Source: Eledone cirrhosa
Taxonomy: Eukaryota
DNA length: 64,000 bases
NCBI GenBank assembly: GCA_964016885.1
Contig: OZ024765.1
Coordinates: 14,508,001-14,572,000 of the forward strand
Direction of reading: 5' to 3'
The notes beneath the pieces were generated by a model, which was given only the letters and a program-made list of their open reading frames with translations, was not told the origin of the DNA and searched no databases. The number at the start of each line of letters is the position of its first letter. Position 1 is the stretch's first letter. Positions 4,093 to 53,790 of this stretch are shown here, one piece after another. A program made the translations under genes and the position numbers.

Positions 4093-4265
4093 GACAAGGC
4101 CAGCAATTATACCAGTGTATTACTGGTACTTTATTCTATCGGCACCCTAAGGATGAAAGGCAAAGTTCACCTCGGCCGAATTTGAAATCAGACCATAAAG
4201 AGCCGTAACTCTTTGCTGCAAAGCATGGCGTCCGATCCTCTACGGATACTGCCAATCCACCGCCA
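4093..4265 (-). mobile_element. tRNA-derived SINE, family A
   Basis: The minus strand has an A-box-like TGGCAGTATCCG, a B-box-like TTCAAAT, the core TTGCCTTTCATCCTT..GATAGAATAAAGTACCAG and the tail GGCCTTGT. Many copies occur in the window. The core resembles the Meta/MESC SINE domain (from memory). Confidence 0.88.
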
Positions 4266-4291
4266 TTTTGTTCGGGGTGTTTTTCTGCTGC

Positions 4292-14945: not shown

Positions 14946-15089
14946 TATGCATTTGTATATATATTTGTATGTATAAATATACGTATTTCACGGCTCAGAA
15001 ATATCTCTTTCTTTGAGCTATTTAATTGTAAAAGACTGTTTGAGTTTATAACTCTATATATAGTATTGTATAAATATATATGTATGTAC

Positions 15090-15866
15090 AATTATTACGG
15101 GGTCGATAAAACAAAGTACCAGTAATACACTGAAATAATTGCTGGGCTTGTACCTAAAGTAGAAACAATTATTACAGGGTCGATAAAATAAACTACCAGT
15201 AATACACTGAAATAATTGCTGGGCTTGTGCCAAAAGTAGAAACAATTATTTCGGGGTCGATAAAATAAAGTACCAGTAATACACTTGGATAATTGCTGGC
15301 CTTGTGCCAAAAGTACAAACAATTATTACAGGGTCGATAAAATAAAGTACCAGTAATACACTGAAATAATTGCTGGGCTTGTACCTAAAGTAGAAACAAT
15401 TATTACATGGTCGATAAAATAAACTACCAGTAATACACTTGGATAATTGCTGGCCTTGTGCCAAAAGTAGAAACAATTATTACAGGGTCGATAAAATAAA
15501 CTACCAGTAATACACTGGGGTAATTGCTGGCCTTGTGCCAAAAGTAGAAACAATTATTACATGGTCGATAAAATAAACTACCAGTAATACACTGGAATAA
15601 TTGCTGGCCTTGTGCCAAAAGTAGAAACAATTATTACAGGGTCGATAAAATAAAGTACCAGTAATACACTGGGGAAATTGCTGGGCTTGTACCTAAAGTA
15701 GAAACAATTATTACAGTGTCGATAAAATAAAGTACCAGTAATACACTGAGGTAATTGCTGGCCTTGTGCCAAAAGTAGAAACAATTATTACAGGGTCGAT
15801 AAAATAAAGTACCAGTAATACACTGGGGGTAATTGCTGGCCTTGTACCTAAAGTAGAAACAATTAT
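15090..15866 (+). repeat. 77-bp tandem array (10 units) made from the SINE A 3' end
   Basis: Unit TTACAGGGTCGATAAAATAAAGTACCAGTAATACACTG...AAAGTAGAAACAATTA. ORF starts at 15245, 15322, 15476 and 15553 confirm the period of 77. Confidence 0.95.
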
Positions 15867-16354
15867 TCTTATAATTATCTTTATCATTATCTTTCAAAAA
15901 CAAATGTAAAAATGAAAAAAAAAAAAAAAATGAAACGTATGTAAAAAAAAAAAAACCTCCCCCCAAAAAACAAAACAGAAAGGAACCACAGAAATGCTCC
16001 CCACGCCCTAAAGCAACCAAAAATAAATATGAAAATCACGCCACCCCGCCTCTGCCACCCCACGTCTCCCCTTCTACAGGAGTCATAAAATTAGTATTGT
16101 GTAGACTGTCTAGAAGGCCCTGACCCTCAGATCTCTGTCATTTGATTAACTATTGATTTTTTGCGATTGCCTGCCATAAAGTCTTCACAATTTCCTCTAC
16201 TTTCTCCTCCTCCTCTTTCTCCTCCTCTTCATAACCTCCTTCTCCTACTACTCATACTCCACTACCTCTCCCTCCCACTCTCTCTCATACCTCAGCACCT
16301 ACCTCCACTAACCACCCCCCCACCCACACCACCTCGGGCACAGCTATAATCCGT

Positions 16355-25130: not shown

Positions 25131-26668
25131 GGTAAAGACCCCCCCCCTCATTTCACGAATAACCATGGGTCTTGTACCTAGAAAGTTCTCCTTCGAGGTA
25201 TGACTCTAGTCAAAATTATTTGTTGAAGACCAGCAGTCTCCCATGTATACCAGTCTCCCCTCTCCACGCCACCGATGTTGTCGAACGGAAAGGTAATGGC
25301 TGATACAGCTTGGAACCAGTGACGTCGCAACATATATATATATATTCACTTATTATATATACACAACATACATACACTATATTTCGACTATATATATACA
25401 CTAAACTACATATGGTGATGCCCAAGGGAAACGCTATGGCTGATACAGCTTGGCACCAGTGACATCACAACATATATATACTCACTTATTATATATACAC
25501 AACATACATACACTATATTTCGACTATATATACACTAAACTACATATGGTGATGTCCAAGGGAAAGGTAATGGCTGATACAGCTTGGCACCAGTGACGTG
25601 CCAACATATATATATTCACTTATTATATATACACAACATACATACACTATATTTCGACTATATATACACTAAACTACATATGTTGATGTCCAAGGGAAAG
25701 GCAATGGCTGATACAGCCTGGCACCAGTGACATCACAACATATATATACTCACTTATTATATATACACAACATATATACACTATATTTCGACTATATATA
25801 CACTAAACTACATATGGTGATGTCCAAGGGAAAGGCAATGGCTGATACAGCTTGGCACCAGTGACATCACAACATATATATACTCACTTATTATATATAC
25901 ACTATATTTCGACTATATATACACTAAACTACATATGGTGATGTCCAAGGGAAAGGCTATGGCTGATACAGCCTGGCACCAGTGACATCACAACATATAT
26001 ATACTCACTTATTATATATACACAACATATATACACTATATTTCGACTATATATACACTAAACTACATATGTTGATGTCCAAGGGAAAGGCAATGGCTGA
26101 TACAGCCTGGCACCAGTGACATCACAACATATATATACTCACTTATTATATACACACAACATATATACACTATATTTCGACTATATATACACTAAACTAC
26201 ATATGGTGATGTCCAAGGGAAAGGTAATGGCTGATACAGCTTGGAACCAGTGACGTGCCAACATATATATACTCACTTGTTATATACACACAACATACAT
26301 ACTATATTTCGACTATATATACACTAAACTACATATGGTGATGTCCAAGGGAAAGGCAATGGCTGATACAGCTTGGCACCAGTGACATCACAACATATAT
26401 ATACTCACTTATTATATATACACAACATATATACACTATATTTCGACTATATATACACTAAACTACATATGGTGATGTCCAAGGGCTAGGCTATGGCTGA
26501 TACAGCTTGGAACCAGTGACGTCGCAAGTAATTCCTACAGTTGAGTGAATTGGAGCAGCGTGAAATATAGTGTCTTGCTCAAGATCACAATGCATCAATA
26601 TGTCCAAGAATCGAACTCTCGACCTCACGATTGTAAGACCGACGCACTAACCAATAAGCCATGCACCT
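25131..26668 (-). mobile_element. tRNA-derived SINE, family B, interrupted by a tandem array
   Basis: Minus-strand head GGTGCATGGCTTATTGGTTAG...GAGTTCGATTC (A/B boxes) at about 26605-26668, then TTGAGCAAGACAC..TTTCACGCTGCTCCA. The tail continues on the far side of the array to ~25131. Confidence 0.85.
25274..26527. repeat. ~134-bp chimeric tandem array inside SINE B
   Basis: GGCTGATACAGC at 25298, 25438, 25572, 25706, 25840, 25961, 26095, 26229, 26361 and 26495. Confidence 0.95.
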
Positions 26669-26705: not shown

Positions 26706-26978
26706 GGGCACGTTGTCGAGTGGTAAGGGTGTTGGACTTACGATCATAATGACGTGGGTTAGATTCCTGGGTTGCGTGTTGTGTTCTTGAGCAAAACACT
26801 TCATTTCACGTTGCTCCAGTATACTCAACTGAAAATGAGTACCAGCAATAGCTGGAGGTTTAACCCTGTGATGGACTGGTGTCCTGTCCAGGGGGGAGTC
26901 TTGTACTCTCAGTCACTTCACGCCATGAAACCGGGACAAGCACCGGTCAAATGAGCCTTCTGACTTAAGATATACTTT
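26706..26978 (+). mobile_element. tRNA-derived SINE with a family-B-like head and a different tail
   Basis: Head GTCGAGTGGTAAGG...GGTTAGATTCC, core TTGAGCAAAACACTTCATTTCACGTTGCTCCAG and tail AACCCTGTGATGGACTGG...GAAACCGGG. Confidence 0.82.
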
Positions 26979-27564
26979 AACCCTGTGATGGACTGGTGTC
27001 CTGTCCATGGGGGAGTCTTGTACTCTCAGTCACTTCACGCCATGAAACCGGGATAAGCACCGGTCAAATGAGCCTTCTGACTTAAGATATACTTTAACCC
27101 TGTGATGGACTGGTGTCCTGTCCATGGGGGAGTCTTGTACTCTCAGTCACTTCACGCCATGAAACCGGGATAAGCACCGGTCAAATGAGCCTTCTGACTT
27201 AAGATATACTTTAACCCTGTGATGGACTGGTGTCCTGTCCAGGGGGGAGTCTTGTACTCTCAGTCACTTCACGCCATGAAACCGGGATAAGCACCGGTCA
27301 AATGAGCCTTCTGACTTAAGATATACTTTAACCCTGTGATGGACTGGTGTCCTGTCCATGGGGGAGTCTTGTACTCTCAGTCACTTCACGCCATGAAACC
27401 GGGACAAGCACCGGTCAAATGAGCCTTCTGACTTAAGATATACTTTAACCCTGTGATGGACTGGTGTCCTGTCCAGGGGGGAGTCTTGTACTCTCAGTCA
27501 CTTCACGCCATGAAACCGGGACAAGCACCGGTCAAATGAGTCTTCTGGCTTAAGACAGACTTTA
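26859..27564 (+). repeat. 117-bp tandem array (6 units) of the SINE tail
   Basis: ACCCTGTGATG at 26863, 26980, 27097, 27214, 27331 and 27448, with TTTA microhomology at the unit borders. Confidence 0.95.
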
Positions 27565-30182: not shown

Positions 30183-30290
30183 CATACATATATATTTATA
30201 TATGCATATATATATATATATTGTAAGTATGCATTTCTCACTAAGAGTGAGAAATGAAATTTCGTTTTCATTTTGTTTCAATTTATATAT

Positions 30291-30605
30291 ATATATTAGT
30301 AAAAGGAAAAGAAAATGCTGACAAATTTTTCCCAGTGAAAAATAGTTTAATTAGGAATAAGTAAAATTTAGTAATAAGTATTGGTTAGTATTCAGTTTTA
30401 GTTTTAAGTTTTTAACGGTTGCGCATTTCCCATGCTTTTCAAAAATAATTTTGAGATAGAGCGCCTGTGATGTTTGCTCTAAACATGCTTAAAACTAAAA
30501 CTGAATACTAACCAATACTTATTACTAATTTTTACTTATTCCTAATTAAACTATTTTTCACTGGCGAAAATTTGTCAGCATTTTCTTTTCCTTTTACTAA
30601 TATAT
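30291..30605. mobile_element. MITE/fold-back element with 118-bp inverted arms
   Basis: 30291-30408 is the reverse complement of 30488-30605 with about 3 mismatches. The spacer is 79 bp and the ends are TA-rich. Confidence 0.85.
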
Positions 30606-30934: not shown

Positions 30935-31524
30935 CAGTTATGGGCAACCGGCGGCCAGCCTAAGGCTCGCATAATTCACCTAAGGCTCGCATAAGTCACC
31001 CAAGGCTCGCATAAGTCACCCAAGGCTCGCATAAGTCACCCAAGGCTCGCATAAGTCACCCAAGGCTCGCATAAGTCACCCAGGGCTCGCATAAGTCACC
31101 AAAGGCTCGCATAAGTCACCCAAGGCTCGCATAAGTCACCAAAGGCTCGCATAAGTCACCAAAGGCTCGCATAAGTCACCTAAGGCACTCATAAGTCACT
31201 TAAGGCTCGCATAAGACACCCAAGGCTCGCATAAGTCACCAAAGGCTCGCATAAGTCACCCAAGGCTCGCATAAGTCACCCAAGGCTCGCATAAGTCACA
31301 CAAAGTTCGCATAAGTCACCAAAGTCACCTAAGTGAAATAATTTCTGATTTTATTTACCCCAACTTTTCAGTTGTAATTTATCTTTTTATCATTTTTACG
31401 ACCGAGGAAAACACCACCCTTTTTTTTTAATGTGGACACGAATGTAAATTAGCGCTTGCGGCCCTCCTAATGATGAGCTATATCTCATGCGGCTCGCTTC
31501 TCGATAAAAGATTGCCCATGCCTG
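30935..31524. mobile_element. hAT-type non-autonomous DNA transposon
   Basis: TIRs CAGTTATGGGCAA / TTGCCCATGCCTG, with an exact 8-bp TSD ATTTATGG at 30927-30934 and 31525-31532. Confidence 0.9.
30961..31330. repeat. 20-bp minisatellite CAAGGCTCGCATAAGTCACC (18 units) inside the MITE
   Basis: Direct reading. Confidence 0.97.
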
Positions 31525-34670: not shown

Positions 34671-35027
34671 AATGAAGATATAAAAATATATAAGATAAAC
34701 TATGCATAAATATAACAAAATAAATTCCCCTATAGAGGGTGGACGACCCTGGGGTGACTCAGGTACCCCACCAATCCTGAACCACCCTGCGCTTCTAGGG
34801 CTCCCGGGGAGAGTACCCCTCTCCTCCTCAAATTAGCTAGCCTATAGGCGCATGGTCAGAGTAAGCCCATTCACACAAGCCATTCTCACCACATTCATCC
34901 ACCTTTTAGCAAATGTACTGGGGGTGGGGTAGCAGCGCTTCTCTCTCTACTCTCACCTTCCTTTCCAGGTGAAACTTTAAGAAGTTGATGAGGGATTGCC
35001 GAAGAGAAAAGTGTCTGTCTTCAGTCC
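34671..35027 (-). mobile_element. L1/Tx1-type LINE ORF2 C-terminus plus 3'UTR fragment
   Basis: Frameshifted translation GLKTDTFL..SLINFLKFHLERKVRVEREALLP..FAKRWMNVVRMACVNG, homologous to 62648-62878. Confidence 0.72.
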
Positions 35028-35033
35028 TATAAA

Positions 35034-35430
35034 CATTGTTTCTACTTTTGGCACAAGGCCAGCAATTATTCCAGTGTATTACTGGTACTTTATTTTATCG
35101 ACAGCGTAAGGATGAAATGCAAAGTTAACCTCGGCGGGATTTGAATTCAGAATGGCAAGGGCCGTAACTCTATGCTTGGCGTCCGACTCTCTACCGATAC
35201 TGCCAATCCACTGCACCTCAGTCCTAAAATAATTGTTTCTACTTTAGGCACAGGGCCAGCAATTACCCAGTGCATTACTGGTACTTTATTTTATCGACCG
35301 CGTAAGGATGAAATGCAAAGTTAACCTCGGCGGGATTTGAACTCAGAATGGCAAGGGCCGTAACTCTATGCTTGGCGTCCAACTCTCTACCGATACTGCC
35401 AATCCACTGCACCTCAGTCCTAAAATAATA
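35034..35430 (-). mobile_element. Tandem dimer of SINE A
   Basis: Two near-identical copies share a deletion (TATGCTTGGCGTCC). TCAGTCCTA occurs before, between and after them. Confidence 0.9.
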
Positions 35431-40765: not shown

Positions 40766-40944
40766 TAGTGTTCGTTGTAGCTTAAGAGATACTGGTGATA
40801 GAAGTGATGGAATTTGTGTTGGTTAAGTCTGTGGTGATGGTGGTAGTGGTAGCGGTAGAGGTGGTAATAGGGCCCTCTAGCGGTCACTGGTGGTCAGATT
40901 TATGCAGTTGCTGATAAATTTGTGTGTGTGTTTAAGTATATATA

Positions 40945-41338
40945 TAATTGTTTCTACTTTAGGCACAAAGCCAGCAAATTCACCAGTGCATTACTGGTAC
41001 TTTATTTTATCGACCCCGTAAAATAAAGTACCAGTAATGCACAGTAAGTATATATATATTAATTGTTTCTACTTTAGGCACAAGGCCAGCAATTATCCAG
41101 TGTATTACTGGTACTTTATTTTATCGACCCCGTAAGGATGAAATGCAAAGTCAACCTCGGCGGGATTTGAACTCAGATCGTAAAGGGACGTAACTATGCT
41201 GGAAAGCATGGCGTCCGACCCTCCACCGATACTGCCACTCTACCGCCATCGGCAGTATCGGTAGAGGGTCGGACGCCATGCTTTCCAGCATAGTTACGTC
41301 CCTTTACAATCTGAGTTCAAATCCCGCCGAGGTTGACT
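40945..41338 (-). mobile_element. Two SINE A insertions, each with a fold-back inverted duplication
   Basis: Arms at 40986-41009/41019-41042 and 41149-41236/41251-41338. Confidence 0.9.
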
Positions 41339-41979: not shown

Positions 41980-42170
41980 ATAGGAACCAGTAAGACCCCG
42001 ACAGCTGAGCTCAAGCCGTTTCGACGGCTAATTCAGAATTAGCCGTCGAAACGGCTTGAGCTCAGCTGTCGGGGTCTTACTGGTTCCTATTACCCACTCT
42101 ACTACCTCAAGTATTGAGTACTTTGGTGCTTTATGGTCCACCTGGTTCCTTACCACATTTCCTTCGTTAT
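41980..42170. mobile_element. Palindromic element, family P, in (TA)n
   Basis: Perfect 55-bp arms at 41980-42034/42036-42090, plus an 80-bp unique tail. Homologues lie at 53598, 55946 and 56982. Confidence 0.9.
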
Positions 42171-42211
42171 ATATATATATATATATATAAATAATACATA
42201 TAATATATATG

Positions 42212-42260
<49 letters not shown>

Positions 42261-42394
42261 CATATAATATATTTGTATGTATATATATATATATATACAT
42301 ATAATATATTTGTATGTATATATATATATATATATAATAGATATAATATATTTGTATGTATATATATATATATATAATACACATAATATATATG

Positions 42395-42426
<32 letters not shown>

Positions 42427-42501
42427 ATATATATAATATATTTCTATGTATATATATATAAATATATATATATATATAATACATATAATATATTTCTATG
42501 T

Positions 42502-42553
<52 letters not shown>

Positions 42554-42574
42554 CATATAATATATTCCTATGTG

Positions 42575-42615
<41 letters not shown>

Positions 42616-42906
42616 ATATATATATAAATGGAATAGAATGAAACGAAATTTCATTTCTCACTCTTAGTGCGGCACTTACTTAAATGTAAGTATGTATGTA
42701 TACGTACATACATATATGTATACAGACGTACAGTAGCATGTATATATATACATACAGGCACACATATATATATATGCACGTATCAGTTTACCGAACATTT
42801 ATTATAATGCTCGGTTTGTTCGTTTGTAAACAAACAAACAGCCTGAATTACGCCGTACAGTGTTTAGGCAACCACGTCACCTTTTTGTTCAACACTGACA
42901 CAGGAA

Positions 42907-42947
42907 CGATGTACTAGTTTCAAGCTTATTAGCTATCGTCAGCACCG
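42907..42947 (-). ncRNA. Minimal type-I hammerhead motif (H3)
   Basis: Minus strand: CGGTG-CTGACGA-T-AGCT-AATA-AGCT-T-GAA-ACTAGT-A-CATCG. Stem I has 5 bp (one G-U), stem III is the palindrome ACTAGT and the triplet is GUA. Confidence 0.82.
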
Positions 42948-43022
42948 TATACCTTTCTGCCAGATGGTTGAACGTCCGAAAGTATATACTTTCCTTATGA
43001 AAATTAACGGCTGAGCAGCCTA

Positions 43023-43030
43023 ATTTGCAT
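43023..43030. promoter_or_regulatory. Octamer motif ATTTGCAT inside the H3 element
   Basis: Exact octamer about 76 nt upstream of the hammerhead in its sense orientation. Function is inferred only. Confidence 0.35.
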
Positions 43031-43288
43031 ATCGAGTGAGTTCAGTCGGCCAGTCGCACCGAAAACGATAAATGGAATGGAATGAAACGAAATTTCATTT
43101 CTCACTCTTAGTACGGCACTTACTTAAATGTAAGTATGTATGTATACGTACATACATATATGTATACAGACGTACAGTAGCATGTATATATATACATACA
43201 GGCACACATATATATATGCACGTATCAGTATATATATAGAATATATTGGTATGTACATGTGTATATATATATATATATATATATATTA

Positions 43289-43320
<32 letters not shown>

Positions 43321-43789
43321 TGTAGATGTATATGTTAATAAACACACACACACTTATATATATGTGTGTGTGTGTATATATATATATTAATACGCACACA
43401 TATATATATATATATATATGCACAAAACATCCACGCATACACATACACAAACTGTATATATATACAGATACATATAACTTCATATACGAACATGTCTTAA
43501 TGCATGCGAGCATATATTCACACACACATATATACATACATATACATATATGTATATATATATATATAACACACACATGTATACAGACATATACGAACAT
43601 ATACACACTCATATACACACATAAGTGGACGGTGCTGATAATATAGAGCGGAGAATGGGAATTCCATTGATACAATATATTCCAAAATGGCCGACGGTAA
43701 ATTTAGTGATATGCGACAAACAATGCTCCGATATATAACTCGTGTCCAGCTTTCTTCTCGCTGATAACGAGATGCTTTTAGATGGCTAA

Positions 43790-47509: not shown

Positions 47510-47680
47510 ATAAAAACTGAACGGTACAATATCGAAATATATTAGTTTACCACTTGATATAGTAGGAAAAGAGTATTTCGGTTTCGGACACTAGTCCTTC
47601 GTCAAAATTCAGAAGGAAGGATTAAAAATGAAATAGAAAGATAGAGAGTGAGAAGAGAAAAGAAAAGTAAAAACATTTTT
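47510..47680 (-). mobile_element. Decayed H1 element
   Basis: Minus strand TTGACGA-A-GGAC-TAGT-GTCC-GAAAC (47581-47605), followed by ACTCTTTTCCTACTATATCAAGTG. Confidence 0.7.
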
Positions 47681-48675: not shown

Positions 48676-48750
48676 TGTAAAAGGTAAACAGAAATTACAA
48701 CACAATCGCTTCAGTATATGGAAGGGATATATTAGGTTAACGATTGAAAT
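48676..48750 (-). mobile_element. H1 3'-end fragment, truncated before the hammerhead
   Basis: TGTAAAAGGTAAACAGAAAT...GGAAGGGATATATTAGGTTAAC. Confidence 0.78.
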
Positions 48751-50443: not shown

Positions 50444-50575
50444 TCGTATAAATCAATATTATTCTCGTGAAAATGTCCGCTGCCTGCCCTTTCGTGTACA
50501 CCCCCCTCCCCCCGCAACTCCACCACTACAGTCACCTATACAACTCCCATCTAATACCACTATTCCCCCAACGTT

Positions 50576-51023
50576 AATAATTGTTTCTAATTTAGGCTCA
50601 AGGCCAGCAAATTACCCAGTGCATTACTGGTACTTTATTTTATCGACCCCGTAAGGATGAAAGGCAAAGTTAACCTCGGCGGGATTTGAACTCAGAATGG
50701 CAAGGGCCGTAACTCTATGCGTCAAAGCATGGCGTCCGACCCTAATAATGGATTGGCAGTATCGGTAGAGGCTCGGACGCCATGCTTTGACGCATAGAGA
50801 TACGGCCCTTGCCATTCTGAGTTCAAATCCCGCCGAGGTTAACTTTGCCTTTCATCCGTACGGGGTCGATAAAATAATGTACCAGTAATGTACTGATTAA
50901 TTTTTTGGCCTTGTGCCACAAGTAGAAACAATTATTATTAATTGTTTCTACTTTTGGCACAAGGCCAGCAATGACACAGTGTATTACTGGTACTTTATTT
51001 TATCGAACCCGTACGGATGAAAG
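50576..51023. mobile_element. Zig-zag SINE A cluster (minus, plus, minus)
   Basis: Minus copy 50576-50743, plus copy 50749-50937 and minus 3' part 50938-51023. Confidence 0.9.
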
Positions 51024-52392: not shown

Positions 52393-52944
52393 AGATAAAT
52401 CTACCAAGAGTTTACGGTAGTGTCCAATCCGTATGAAGAACTCAATGTATTCCGGATATCATGGAAAGAAGAGATGTAATGAAAAACCACTTTCGGTGAA
52501 AGATAAACGGTATACAGAGTCAAGATAAAATATTAAACAAATAATGAATAAACAATTCCTTATATTAAACAAAAAAAGTACATTATTTAACGATCGTTTC
52601 TAGGGTATATATGTGTTATAATTGGTATGCATATTCAACAGATCTATGTACAAAATTATACAAAATTATACAAATTATCAAGATTAAATATACATACCTA
52701 ACACATATATACGCCGTCTTCAGAAATAATTTATTATTATTATTATTGAAGACGGCGTATATATGTGTTAGGTATGTATATTTAATCTTGATAATTTGTA
52801 TAATTTTGTATAATTTTGTACATAGATCTGTTGAATATGCATACCAATTATAACACATATATACCCTAGAAACGATCGTTAAATAATGTACTTTTTTTGT
52901 TTAATATAAGGAATTGTTTATTCATTATTTGTTTAATATTTTAT
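52393..52944 (-). mobile_element. Palindromic hammerhead element, family H4, in (TA)n
   Basis: 198-bp arms at 52525-52722/52747-52944 with a 24-nt spacer and a 132-bp unique extension. (TA)n lies on both sides. Confidence 0.9.
52582..52730 (-). ncRNA. Type-I hammerhead motif with a very long stem II (H4)
   Basis: Minus strand: ATTATTT-CTGAAGA-[~116 nt self-complementary]-GAAAC-GATC-GTT-AAATAAT. Stem I is a perfect 7 bp, with a palindromic GATC loop 3 and a GUU triplet. Confidence 0.8.
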
Positions 52945-53601: not shown

Positions 53602-53790
53602 CAGGAATTGTGGTAAGGAACCAGATGGACCATAACGCACGAGAGTACTCAATACTTAGGGTAGTAGAGAGGGAAATAGGAAAAATTATGACCACGATGG
53701 CAGAGCTCAAGCCGTTTCCACGGCTATTTCTGTCCAGAAATAGCCGTCGAAACGGCTTGAGCTCTGCCGCCGAGGTCATACGTTTTCTAT
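53598..53790. mobile_element. Family P palindromic element
   Basis: Arms at 53687-53732/53735-53780, plus a tail ATAACAGGAATTGTGGTAAGGAACCAG...GTACTCAATAC. Confidence 0.88.

What the first reader, a model, noticed from the sequence alone, without database searches (positions are those of the whole stretch)
42624..43229. 444-bp unit present as a 1.4-mer with an internal hammerhead and an octamer: retrozyme-like element
Seen: ~163-bp direct repeats flank a 280-bp core. The core contains a well-formed minus-strand hammerhead (GUA site) and ATTTGCAT ~76 nt upstream of it, with no ORF and (TA)n on both sides. Known: non-LTR retrozymes are few-hundred-nt hammerhead units copied from circular RNA into partial tandems, and newt satellite 2 combines a hammerhead with an snRNA-type octamer promoter. 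Inference: this is a reverse-transcribed copy of a ~444-nt circular RNA that carries its own promoter.
Basis: partly seen in the sequence, partly recalled or inferred. Interest (0 to 1): 0.8.

Follow-up and report, generated by a model that had tools for sequence, protein, structure and literature searches.

The report
Truncated hammerhead retrozyme copy, fixed end
This stretch is one shortened copy of a numerous non-coding repeat that carries a conserved self-cutting-type RNA motif and starts at a fixed point, likely pasted in by Penelope-type jumping-gene enzymes; it belongs to a known class, and cutting, RNA circles and its promoter-like block are untested.

Summary
Direct repeats of 164 and 162 bp (97.6% identical, 444 bp apart) flank a 280-bp core with a canonical type I hammerhead on the minus strand (0 of 40,000 shuffles match) and an octamer, between (TA)n tracts. 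It is no one-off: thousands of variant contigs from one run lay on it. None of 26 core, helix II or helix III positions varies in 10% or more of reads, against 33 of 166 elsewhere (p=0.005), and helix I co-varies. With inverted junctions, this points to Penelope-type internal priming. The copy crosses the cleavage site intact, so its template was a circle or an uncut multimer; I cannot tell which. The octamer is invariant but not significantly so alone (p=0.23); the TATA-octamer block is modestly conserved (p about 0.02-0.04). With one weak hammerhead, this copy is probably a dead end. Verdict: new member of the animal non-LTR retrozymes. The scan noted similar families on other DNA of this genome.

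The parts
42624..43229 (-). Whole insertion, 1.36 copies of a 444-nt unit; RNA sense is the minus strand
42624..42787 (-). Repeat copy at the RNA 3' side; 42624 is the fixed, (TA)n-joined end of the family (inferred start of cDNA synthesis)
   Evidence: 46 contigs with (TA)n directly before the equivalent place 43068; fragment at 30286
42788..43067 (-). 280-nt core present once
43068..43229 (-). Repeat copy at the RNA 5' side; 43229 is the inferred 5' truncation point
   Evidence: no recurrent end at the equivalent place among the loose ends listed (list cut)
42902..42954 (-). Canonical type I hammerhead motif: core 42942-42912, predicted cleavage between 42912 and 42911; helix I 42943-48 with 42911-06, continued by 42952-54 with 42904-02
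   Evidence: conservation and co-variation
42887..42973 (-). Predicted long extension of helix I around the ribozyme (z = -3.0)
42983..42988 (-). TATA-like box (TATATA) inside a 16-nt palindrome 42978-42993; 27-31 nt upstream of GGCAG (42961-42957)
   Evidence: no variant row in 42978-42999
43023..43030 (-). Octamer (ATGCAAAT on the ribozyme strand), 34 nt upstream of the TATA-like box
   Evidence: variants
43062..43065 (-). Run of four T on the RNA strand, beginning 3 nt past the fixed end when units are joined; possible weak Pol III stop (inference)
   Evidence: no variant row 43058-43071
42168..42623 (.). (TA)n-rich left flank (target)
43230..43419 (.). (TA)n-rich right flank (target)
30190..30286 (-). 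Diverged fragment (79% over 99 columns) that begins at the same end, also after TA repeats; this family or a sister family

Best explanation
This is one dispersed, 1.36-unit copy of a high-copy, non-coding 444-nt repeat with a conserved type I hammerhead motif and a fixed TA-joined end, likely a non-LTR retrozyme written into the genome by the reverse transcriptase of a Penelope-like element from a circular or uncut multimeric RNA. Shown: the anatomy, the large family, selection on the hammerhead fold, one fixed end, inverted junctions in sister copies. Inferred cycle: (1) source loci with two or more units are transcribed on the minus strand, possibly from the octamer-TATA block inside each unit (about even odds); (2) two hammerheads pair through the ACUAGU palindrome and cut at GUA, releasing a 444-nt monomer that is ligated to a circle; a lone hammerhead is predicted to rest in a non-catalytic fold, which would protect the circle; (3) a Penelope-like endonuclease nicks (TA)n DNA and its reverse transcriptase primes internally at a fixed site 288 nt past the cleavage site; (4) synthesis ran 606 nt, across the intact cleavage site and back into the start region, and stopped, which made the two direct repeats. 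With one hammerhead this copy should not release a monomer and is probably a dead end. Odds by step: retrozyme-type family 0.9; Penelope-type mobilisation 0.7; circle rather than uncut multimer 0.55; working promoter 0.5.
For: Family size: 16,898 contigs of run X1 and 64,622 of 12.47 million reads of X21 lay on the unit, in part on its low-complexity stretch; 4,495 contigs of X1 and 28,772 of 12.79 million reads of X22 lay on 216 nt around ribozyme and octamer; rough bounds 1,300 to 97,000 copies (the tool warns that summed depth is no copy number). Selection: 0 of 26 core, helix II and helix III positions have a variant at 10% or more, against 33 of 166 others in 42903-43094 (p=0.005, from the complete table); the frequent changes fall on N7 (42938) and loop II (42928). 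The shares of U>G at 42909 and G>U at 42945, partners in helix I, move together over 9 run/strand sets (rho 0.82, p=0.007) and keep a wobble pair in the hammerhead fold while breaking a pair of the lowest-energy fold. Fixed end: 46 X1 contigs have (TA)n directly before 43068, the largest of the 6 X1 loose-end rows shown and the only TA one; the fragment at 30286 starts at the same place; X1 depth rises about 3.5-fold across it. Opposite-strand joints at varied core positions, two of them (42933, 43042) in both X1 and X22. Both unit junctions occur in other copies. Literature: canonical metazoan type I anatomy and dimer action (PMC4209133 passages; PMC7229834 section 15); Penelope reverse transcriptase nicks AT-rich DNA and starts internally at fixed sites (PMC11167929); partial tandems, 5' truncation, inverted copies and, for Naiads, (TA)n targets (PMC8557442 passages).
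Against: No cleavage, circle or transcript was observed. No helper element was found: 0 of 27 stop-free frames scanned (of 33 listed) had a Pfam hit, and no genome was available. Tandem arrays of this family were not seen, since short contigs cannot show them. The 12 catalytic-core positions alone are not significantly more conserved than the rest (p=0.10); the 9 sets in the co-variation test are not independent, one set (X7) departs (0.14 against 0.53), and phase within one molecule was not seen. The RAD run X22 shows no TA loose end at 43068 among its 6 rows shown, and only 18 of 297 loose-end rows are shown; the depth rise is confounded by a variable stretch at 43043-43057. A second fixed end ('tail') was not seen within 42895-43110. 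The catalytic monomer fold is 7.5 kcal/mol above the lowest-energy fold, and 8 of 9 predicted frog retrozyme dimers did not cleave in vitro (preprint 10.64898/2026.07.22.740005). The octamer alone is not above background conservation (p=0.23; 0.59 if the RAD-biased row is kept) and sits about 70 nt from the guessed start, where human snRNA genes have the PSE, the octamer-bearing element usually lying at -250 to -170 (PMC9652321 passage).
Confidence: 0.68

Rival explanations
1. Same element and helper, but the template was a linear, uncut read-through transcript of a tandem source locus; no circle is needed for insertion.
For: The 1.36-mer is predicted equally. The two repeats differ at 2 sites plus an indel, which could come from two source units. 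The lone hammerhead is weak. In the one Penelope element tested in vitro, uncut RNA was the dominant substrate and ribozyme mutants inserted normally (PMC11167929).
Against: The unit folds strongly as a circle on the ribozyme strand (z = -8.0 against -4.1 for the other strand, 60 shuffles each; inflated by TA palindromes). Circles are the main form in mussel and about half in axolotl (PMC7229834). 1.2% difference is also what a modest age would give.
Confidence: 0.3
2. The unit is the pseudo-LTR of an autonomous Penelope-like element, and this copy is a 5'-truncated insertion of it rather than a separate non-autonomous family.
For: Fixed 3' end, TA target, inverted junctions and a hammerhead all fit Penelope-like elements; frog retrozymes are related to pLTRs.
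Against: The sequence returns to the unit start after 444 nt with no coding frame, and other copies show the same junction. The ribozyme has the canonical proportions (helix I 6 bp, helix II 4 bp), not the minimal pLTR form with a shorter helix I and longer helix II.
Confidence: 0.1
3. A fragment of a satellite or a local duplication spread at the DNA level (recombination, extrachromosomal DNA), with the hammerhead as a passenger.
For: The window is 60% simple repeats and holds many tandem arrays.
Against: One exact end shared by 46 contigs and a second window fragment, joined to (TA)n; selection on an RNA fold.
Confidence: 0.05
4. A TRIM or LTR retrozyme whose 163-bp repeats are true LTRs.
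For: Two near-identical direct repeats flank a short non-coding core.
Against: No TG..CA ends, no TGG primer-binding site or polypurine tract next to the repeats on either strand (read); the hammerhead is type I and lies outside the repeats, whereas LTR retrozymes carry type III inside them; no recurrent end at the inner repeat boundary among the loose ends listed.
Confidence: 0.02

Closest known systems
Metazoan non-LTR retrozymes (coral, mussel, axolotl; Cervera and de la Pena 2020, PMC7229834; vertebrate survey 10.64898/2026.07.22.740005)
   Same: Non-coding unit of a few hundred nt (444; range given 150-450), low GC (38%), one canonical type I hammerhead per unit, no LTR, PBS or PPT, thousands of copies, dispersed monomer-size derivatives.
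   Different: This copy holds only one hammerhead, so it fails the two-hammerhead rule for an 'active' locus; it joins the one-pair palindromic helix III of HHR_Amex1 with the U.U helix II base of HHR_Amex2; a fixed TA-joined end and an octamer-TATA block are not described in the parts read; circles not shown here.
Penelope-like elements and their non-autonomous forms (PAc, PMC11167929; Naiad and Chlamys, MRC1, PMC8557442)
   Same: Partial tandem that mimics LTRs, fixed 3' end downstream of the hammerhead cut site, AT-rich or (TA)n target, inverted junctions.
   Different: No reading frame; canonical rather than minimal hammerhead; second start site ('tail') not found in the part examined; no sequence link to an autonomous element shown.
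Newt satellite 2 and schistosome Sm-alpha (as cited in PMC2220036 and PMC6765202; originals not read)
   Same: Hammerhead repeat with promoter-like signals inside the unit, so that one unit would drive the next.
   Different: Newt satellite 2 is reported as Pol II with an snRNA-type promoter; here the TATA-like box would suggest a U6/H1-type Pol III promoter, and no promoter activity is shown.

Membership tests
Canonical type I hammerhead ribozyme | CUGANGA, GAAA and UH core around three helices (I about 6 bp, II 4 bp, III 1-2 bp with palindromic loop) | tested here: met
   U.U at the base of helix II as in HHR_Amex2; Rfam models did not hit
Canonical type I hammerhead ribozyme | Core conserved and helices co-varying among copies | tested here: met
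   0 of 26 against 33 of 166 variable, p=0.005; 42909/42945 shares correlate
Canonical type I hammerhead ribozyme | Self-cleavage at the predicted site | not testable with these tools
   needs in vitro transcription; monomer fold predicted unfavourable
Non-LTR retrozyme | Non-coding unit of 150-450 nt, low GC, one type I hammerhead | tested here: met
   444 nt, 38% GC, no Pfam hit
Non-LTR retrozyme | Many genomic copies | tested here: met
Non-LTR retrozyme | Head-to-tail arrays with two or more hammerheads | tested here: inconclusive
   this locus has one; both junctions exist in other copies, but short contigs cannot show arrays; no genome
Non-LTR retrozyme | No LTR, PBS or PPT | tested here: met
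   read
Non-LTR retrozyme | Expressed as linear and circular monomer RNA | not testable with these tools
Penelope-mobilised element | Fixed 3' end, AT-rich target, partial tandem, inverted junctions | tested here: met
   list of loose ends cut to 18 of 297
Penelope-mobilised element | Second start site 30-60 nt from the first (tail) | tested here: inconclusive
   none listed within 42895-43110; the stretch beyond was not covered
Penelope-mobilised element | End sequence shared with an autonomous element | not testable with these tools
   no genome; none in the window
TRIM / LTR retrozyme | TG..CA LTRs with PBS and PPT; type III hammerhead inside the LTR | tested here: not met
snRNA-type (U6/H1-like) promoter | Octamer and TATA box in promoter order, conserved | tested here: inconclusive
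   order present; octamer plus TATA 25-45 nt apart in 8 of 40,000 core shuffles and 65 of 40,000 unit shuffles (pattern chosen after seeing it); block 42978-43032 variable at 5 of 55 against 28 of 137, p=0.04 (0.02 without the RAD-biased row); octamer alone p=0.23
snRNA-type (U6/H1-like) promoter | PSE matching the host's snRNA genes; start site about 30 nt past the TATA box | not testable with these tools
   no host genome or RNA; no mollusc U6 promoter paper found

The most novel reading that the evidence does not exclude
A self-promoting retrozyme: each 444-nt unit carries a compact octamer-TATA, U6/H1-type promoter upstream of its own start site, a layout that ordinary retroposition would lose and that survives only because a Penelope enzyme copies a ribozyme-made RNA circle past one full turn from a fixed internal site, while an alternative helix keeps the single hammerhead of the circle switched off.
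Probability: 0.27. Interest if true: 0.65.

Novelty: new member of a known kind. Interest (0 to 1): 0.4.

Why it matters
How animal retrozymes are transcribed and pasted back is proposed but not shown in the papers read (PMC7229834 Discussion; 10.64898/2026.07.22.740005 Discussion). This family gives a defined candidate priming site, target and promoter block that can be tested with a purified Penelope protein and a reporter. The locus itself is a truncated, probably inactive copy, and longer, younger arrays of other families in this genome are better material. It also shows that apparent small LTR elements in such genomes can be partial tandems.

Tried and rejected
Whole-genome search: no genome held. 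Rfam: no hit at gathering score in the window; 66 weak matches in 42600-43260, none a hammerhead, the best being TA-rich microRNA models far below threshold, taken as chance. Hammerhead pattern scan: 0 matches in metagenome contigs and 0 in viral contigs. Sequencing runs: no RNA holder listed, no evidence either way; 13 of the 20 holding runs (X2, X3, X8-X20 except none laid) were not examined: I laid 5 of the 20 holders (X1, X4, X5, X6, X7) and 2 of 3 added RAD runs (X21, X22), so 15 holders were left unlaid. X4 (kind not on record) is not used as evidence of expression. X5, X6 and X7 carry other organism labels and hold the core at low depth with the same variant sets as organism A; they may be traces of the same DNA, so I do not claim spread across species. 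Read ends at 43005, 43022, 43025 and 43094 lie on AATT words and were rejected as restriction ends; the 43023 A>T row (113 of 528 reads on one strand of X22; 211 of 1.3 million depth in X1) destroys such a word and is likely enriched by that bias; tests are given with and without it. The depth peak at 42741-42775 and its TA loose ends were rejected as generic microsatellite. Helper search: 27 of 33 stop-free frames scanned, 0 Pfam hits. Earlier findings by sequence, near and relatives: nothing. Not in print as far as searched: 'retrozyme + hammerhead' (49 papers, 30 listed), 'octopus / hammerhead ribozyme / Penelope' (79, 20 listed), 'cephalopod + hammerhead + circular RNA' (1, listing only); the main text of PMC13282606 has no 'ribozyme' or 'retrozyme'; supplements of these papers were not opened and may list such repeats.

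Full report
Observation. The two repeats lie at 42624-42787 and 43068-43229, 444 bp apart and 97.6% identical, with two substitutions and a 2-nt indel in an (AT)n run; the core between them is 280 nt, so the insertion is 1.36 units. Both flanks are (TA)n tracts, in a window that is 60% simple repeats. No target-site duplication can be resolved in such flanks. The DNA looks like octopus DNA to me (recalled impression; earlier notes of the scan call the genome cephalopod); I did not verify this and the argument does not need it.

The ribozyme motif. On the minus strand CUGACGA starts at 42942, helix II has four pairs with a U.U at its base and the loop AAUA, GAAA is followed by the palindrome ACUAGU, and the GUA triplet ends at 42912. 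Helix I has six pairs, a small internal loop and three more pairs. A type I descriptor hit only this place in the window and 0 of 40,000 shuffles of the unit. Rfam models did not score it. The proportions are those given for canonical metazoan type I motifs, which need a second copy to cleave well (PMC4209133 passages). It joins the one-pair palindromic helix III of axolotl HHR_Amex1 with the U.U helix II base of HHR_Amex2 (PMC7229834 section 15). The lowest-energy fold of the 90-nt region (z = -3.0) is not the catalytic one: it pairs the start of the core with the cleavage region and lies 7.5 kcal/mol lower (secondary structure only).

The family. No genome was held, so I used public runs and laid 7 of the 23 listed. 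On the 444-nt unit 16,898 contigs of X1 and 64,622 of 12.47 million RAD reads of X21 were laid, part of them on the low-complexity stretch. On 42895-43110, 4,495 contigs of X1 and 28,772 of 12.79 million reads of X22 were laid. Crude bounds from summed depth are 1,300 to 97,000 copies. X1 may be the sample behind the assembly, so the RAD runs, from another study, are the independent check. The variant table is complete (36 rows at 10% or more). None of 26 positions of core, helix II pairs and helix III varies, against 33 of 166 elsewhere (p=0.005); the 12 core positions alone give p=0.10. Frequent changes fall on N7, loop II and unpaired places, or keep a pair: the shares of U>G at 42909 and G>U at 42945 track each other over 9 non-independent sets (rho 0.82), G>A at 42945 and U>A at 42949 would make Watson-Crick pairs, and the changes at 42954 and 42967 keep wobble pairs. 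The co-variation fits the hammerhead fold and not the lowest-energy fold.

The ends. Instead 46 X1 contigs have (TA)n directly before 43068, the place equal to 42624, and X1 depth rises about 3.5-fold across it. A diverged fragment at 30286-30190 begins at the same place after TA repeats. This end is the RNA 3' side, 288 nt past the cleavage site, so it is not a ribozyme-made end. No recurrent end at the inner repeat boundary is among the loose ends listed, and contigs run through both junctions, so the direct repeats are the overlap of a more-than-unit copy and not LTRs; TG..CA, PBS and PPT are absent. One search lists 11 opposite-strand joints at varied positions among 15 of 19 rows shown besides two others; two of them occur in both X1 and X22. 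Limits: only 18 of 297 loose-end rows are shown, X22 shows no TA row at 43068 among its six, one search did not cover one end of the unit, and no second fixed end was seen. A fixed internal start, AT-rich targets, partial tandems and inverted copies are the marks of Penelope-like elements (PMC11167929 parts 1-2 of 4; PMC8557442 passages). No helper gene is in the window, though relics with minimal hammerhead cores are.

The template. A linear monomer cut by the ribozyme could give at most 288 nt of cDNA from the fixed start. This copy runs 606 nt across the intact site, so the template was a ligated circle or an uncut multimer. The unit folds well as a circle on the ribozyme strand (z = -8.0), and circles are shown for coral, mussel and axolotl retrozymes (PMC7229834 passages and sections 14, 15, 17), but uncut RNA was the main substrate of the Penelope element tested in vitro. 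I put the circle at 0.55. With a single hammerhead the locus fails the two-hammerhead criterion of the 2026 preprint (parts 1-3 of 5) and corresponds to its dispersed monomer-type offspring.

The promoter-like block. On the ribozyme strand the order is octamer (43030-43023), 34 nt, TATATA (42988-42983), 27-31 nt, GGCAG, hammerhead. I looked for the TATA and GGCAG after reading earlier scan notes on other families of this genome. The octamer alone appears in 3.5% of unit shuffles; with the TATA at this range in 65 of 40,000 (post hoc). It has no variant row except one biased by the RAD cut site, but 8 quiet positions are expected with p=0.23; the block 42978-43032 is variable at 5 of 55 positions against 28 of 137 (p=0.04; 0.02 without that row). 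Loose ends of diverged sub-families keep the octamer or the TATA while the neighbouring letters change (rows 43044 and 42975). A TATA box about 30 nt before a G would suit a U6/H1-type promoter (established knowledge; compact H1 layout in PMC11340601 passages), but the octamer is closer than in human snRNA genes (PMC9652321 passages) and I could not test for a PSE. A run of four T follows the fixed end by 3 nt; a Pol III transcript would have to read through it to reach a second hammerhead. Internal promoters are already reported for newt and schistosome hammerhead repeats (PMC2220036 and PMC6765202 passages; originals not read). I give promoter function even odds.

Verdict. A real, selected hammerhead repeat and a new member of the animal non-LTR retrozymes, probably moved by Penelope-like enzymes. 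This 444-nt sequence had no look-alike in the scan's index, but the scan has many notes on 310, 422-424 and 467-478-nt families of the same genome with the same proposed mechanism; they are unchecked AI notes and are not counted as support. I found no paper on cephalopod retrozymes in the searches named under Tried and rejected; supplements were not seen. Interest 0.4.

Noticed in passing
window 41980-42168 and 53603-53787: Two related (83%) short insertions in (TA)n, each made of two back-to-back arms of unequal length (the first has a near-perfect 105-nt palindrome); they look like two-armed Penelope-type insertions holding only the 3' half of a possible ribozyme.
   Followed up: partly
window 4912 (-), 14824 (+), 24949 (-), with relatives near 47537-47657 and 48680-48750: A family of relics with minimal hammerhead cores (short helix I, palindromic AACGUU-type helix III), like pLTR ends of Penelope-like elements.
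   Followed up: partly
window 30291-30605: Element with 65-nt terminal inverted repeats (97%) directly beside the 3'-end fragment at 30286; MITE-like or two-armed insertion.
   Followed up: no
window 4095-4266, 15088-15867, 35021-35429, 40934-41338, 50575-51023: An abundant SINE-like family present as single copies, a 77-nt tandem array of 10 units, and inverted pairs.
   Followed up: no
window 42997-43004: A second octamer-like word on the opposite strand, one mismatch from the consensus both in this copy and in the variant carried by about half of the family (rows 43000 and 43002).
   Followed up: partly
window 52528-52941: Perfect inverted repeat arms of 121 nt plus 35 nt around a short spacer.
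   Followed up: no
window 25279-26527, 26859-27564, 30962-31324: Young tandem arrays of 134, 117 and 20-nt units that look like amplified pieces of SINE-like repeats.
   Followed up: no
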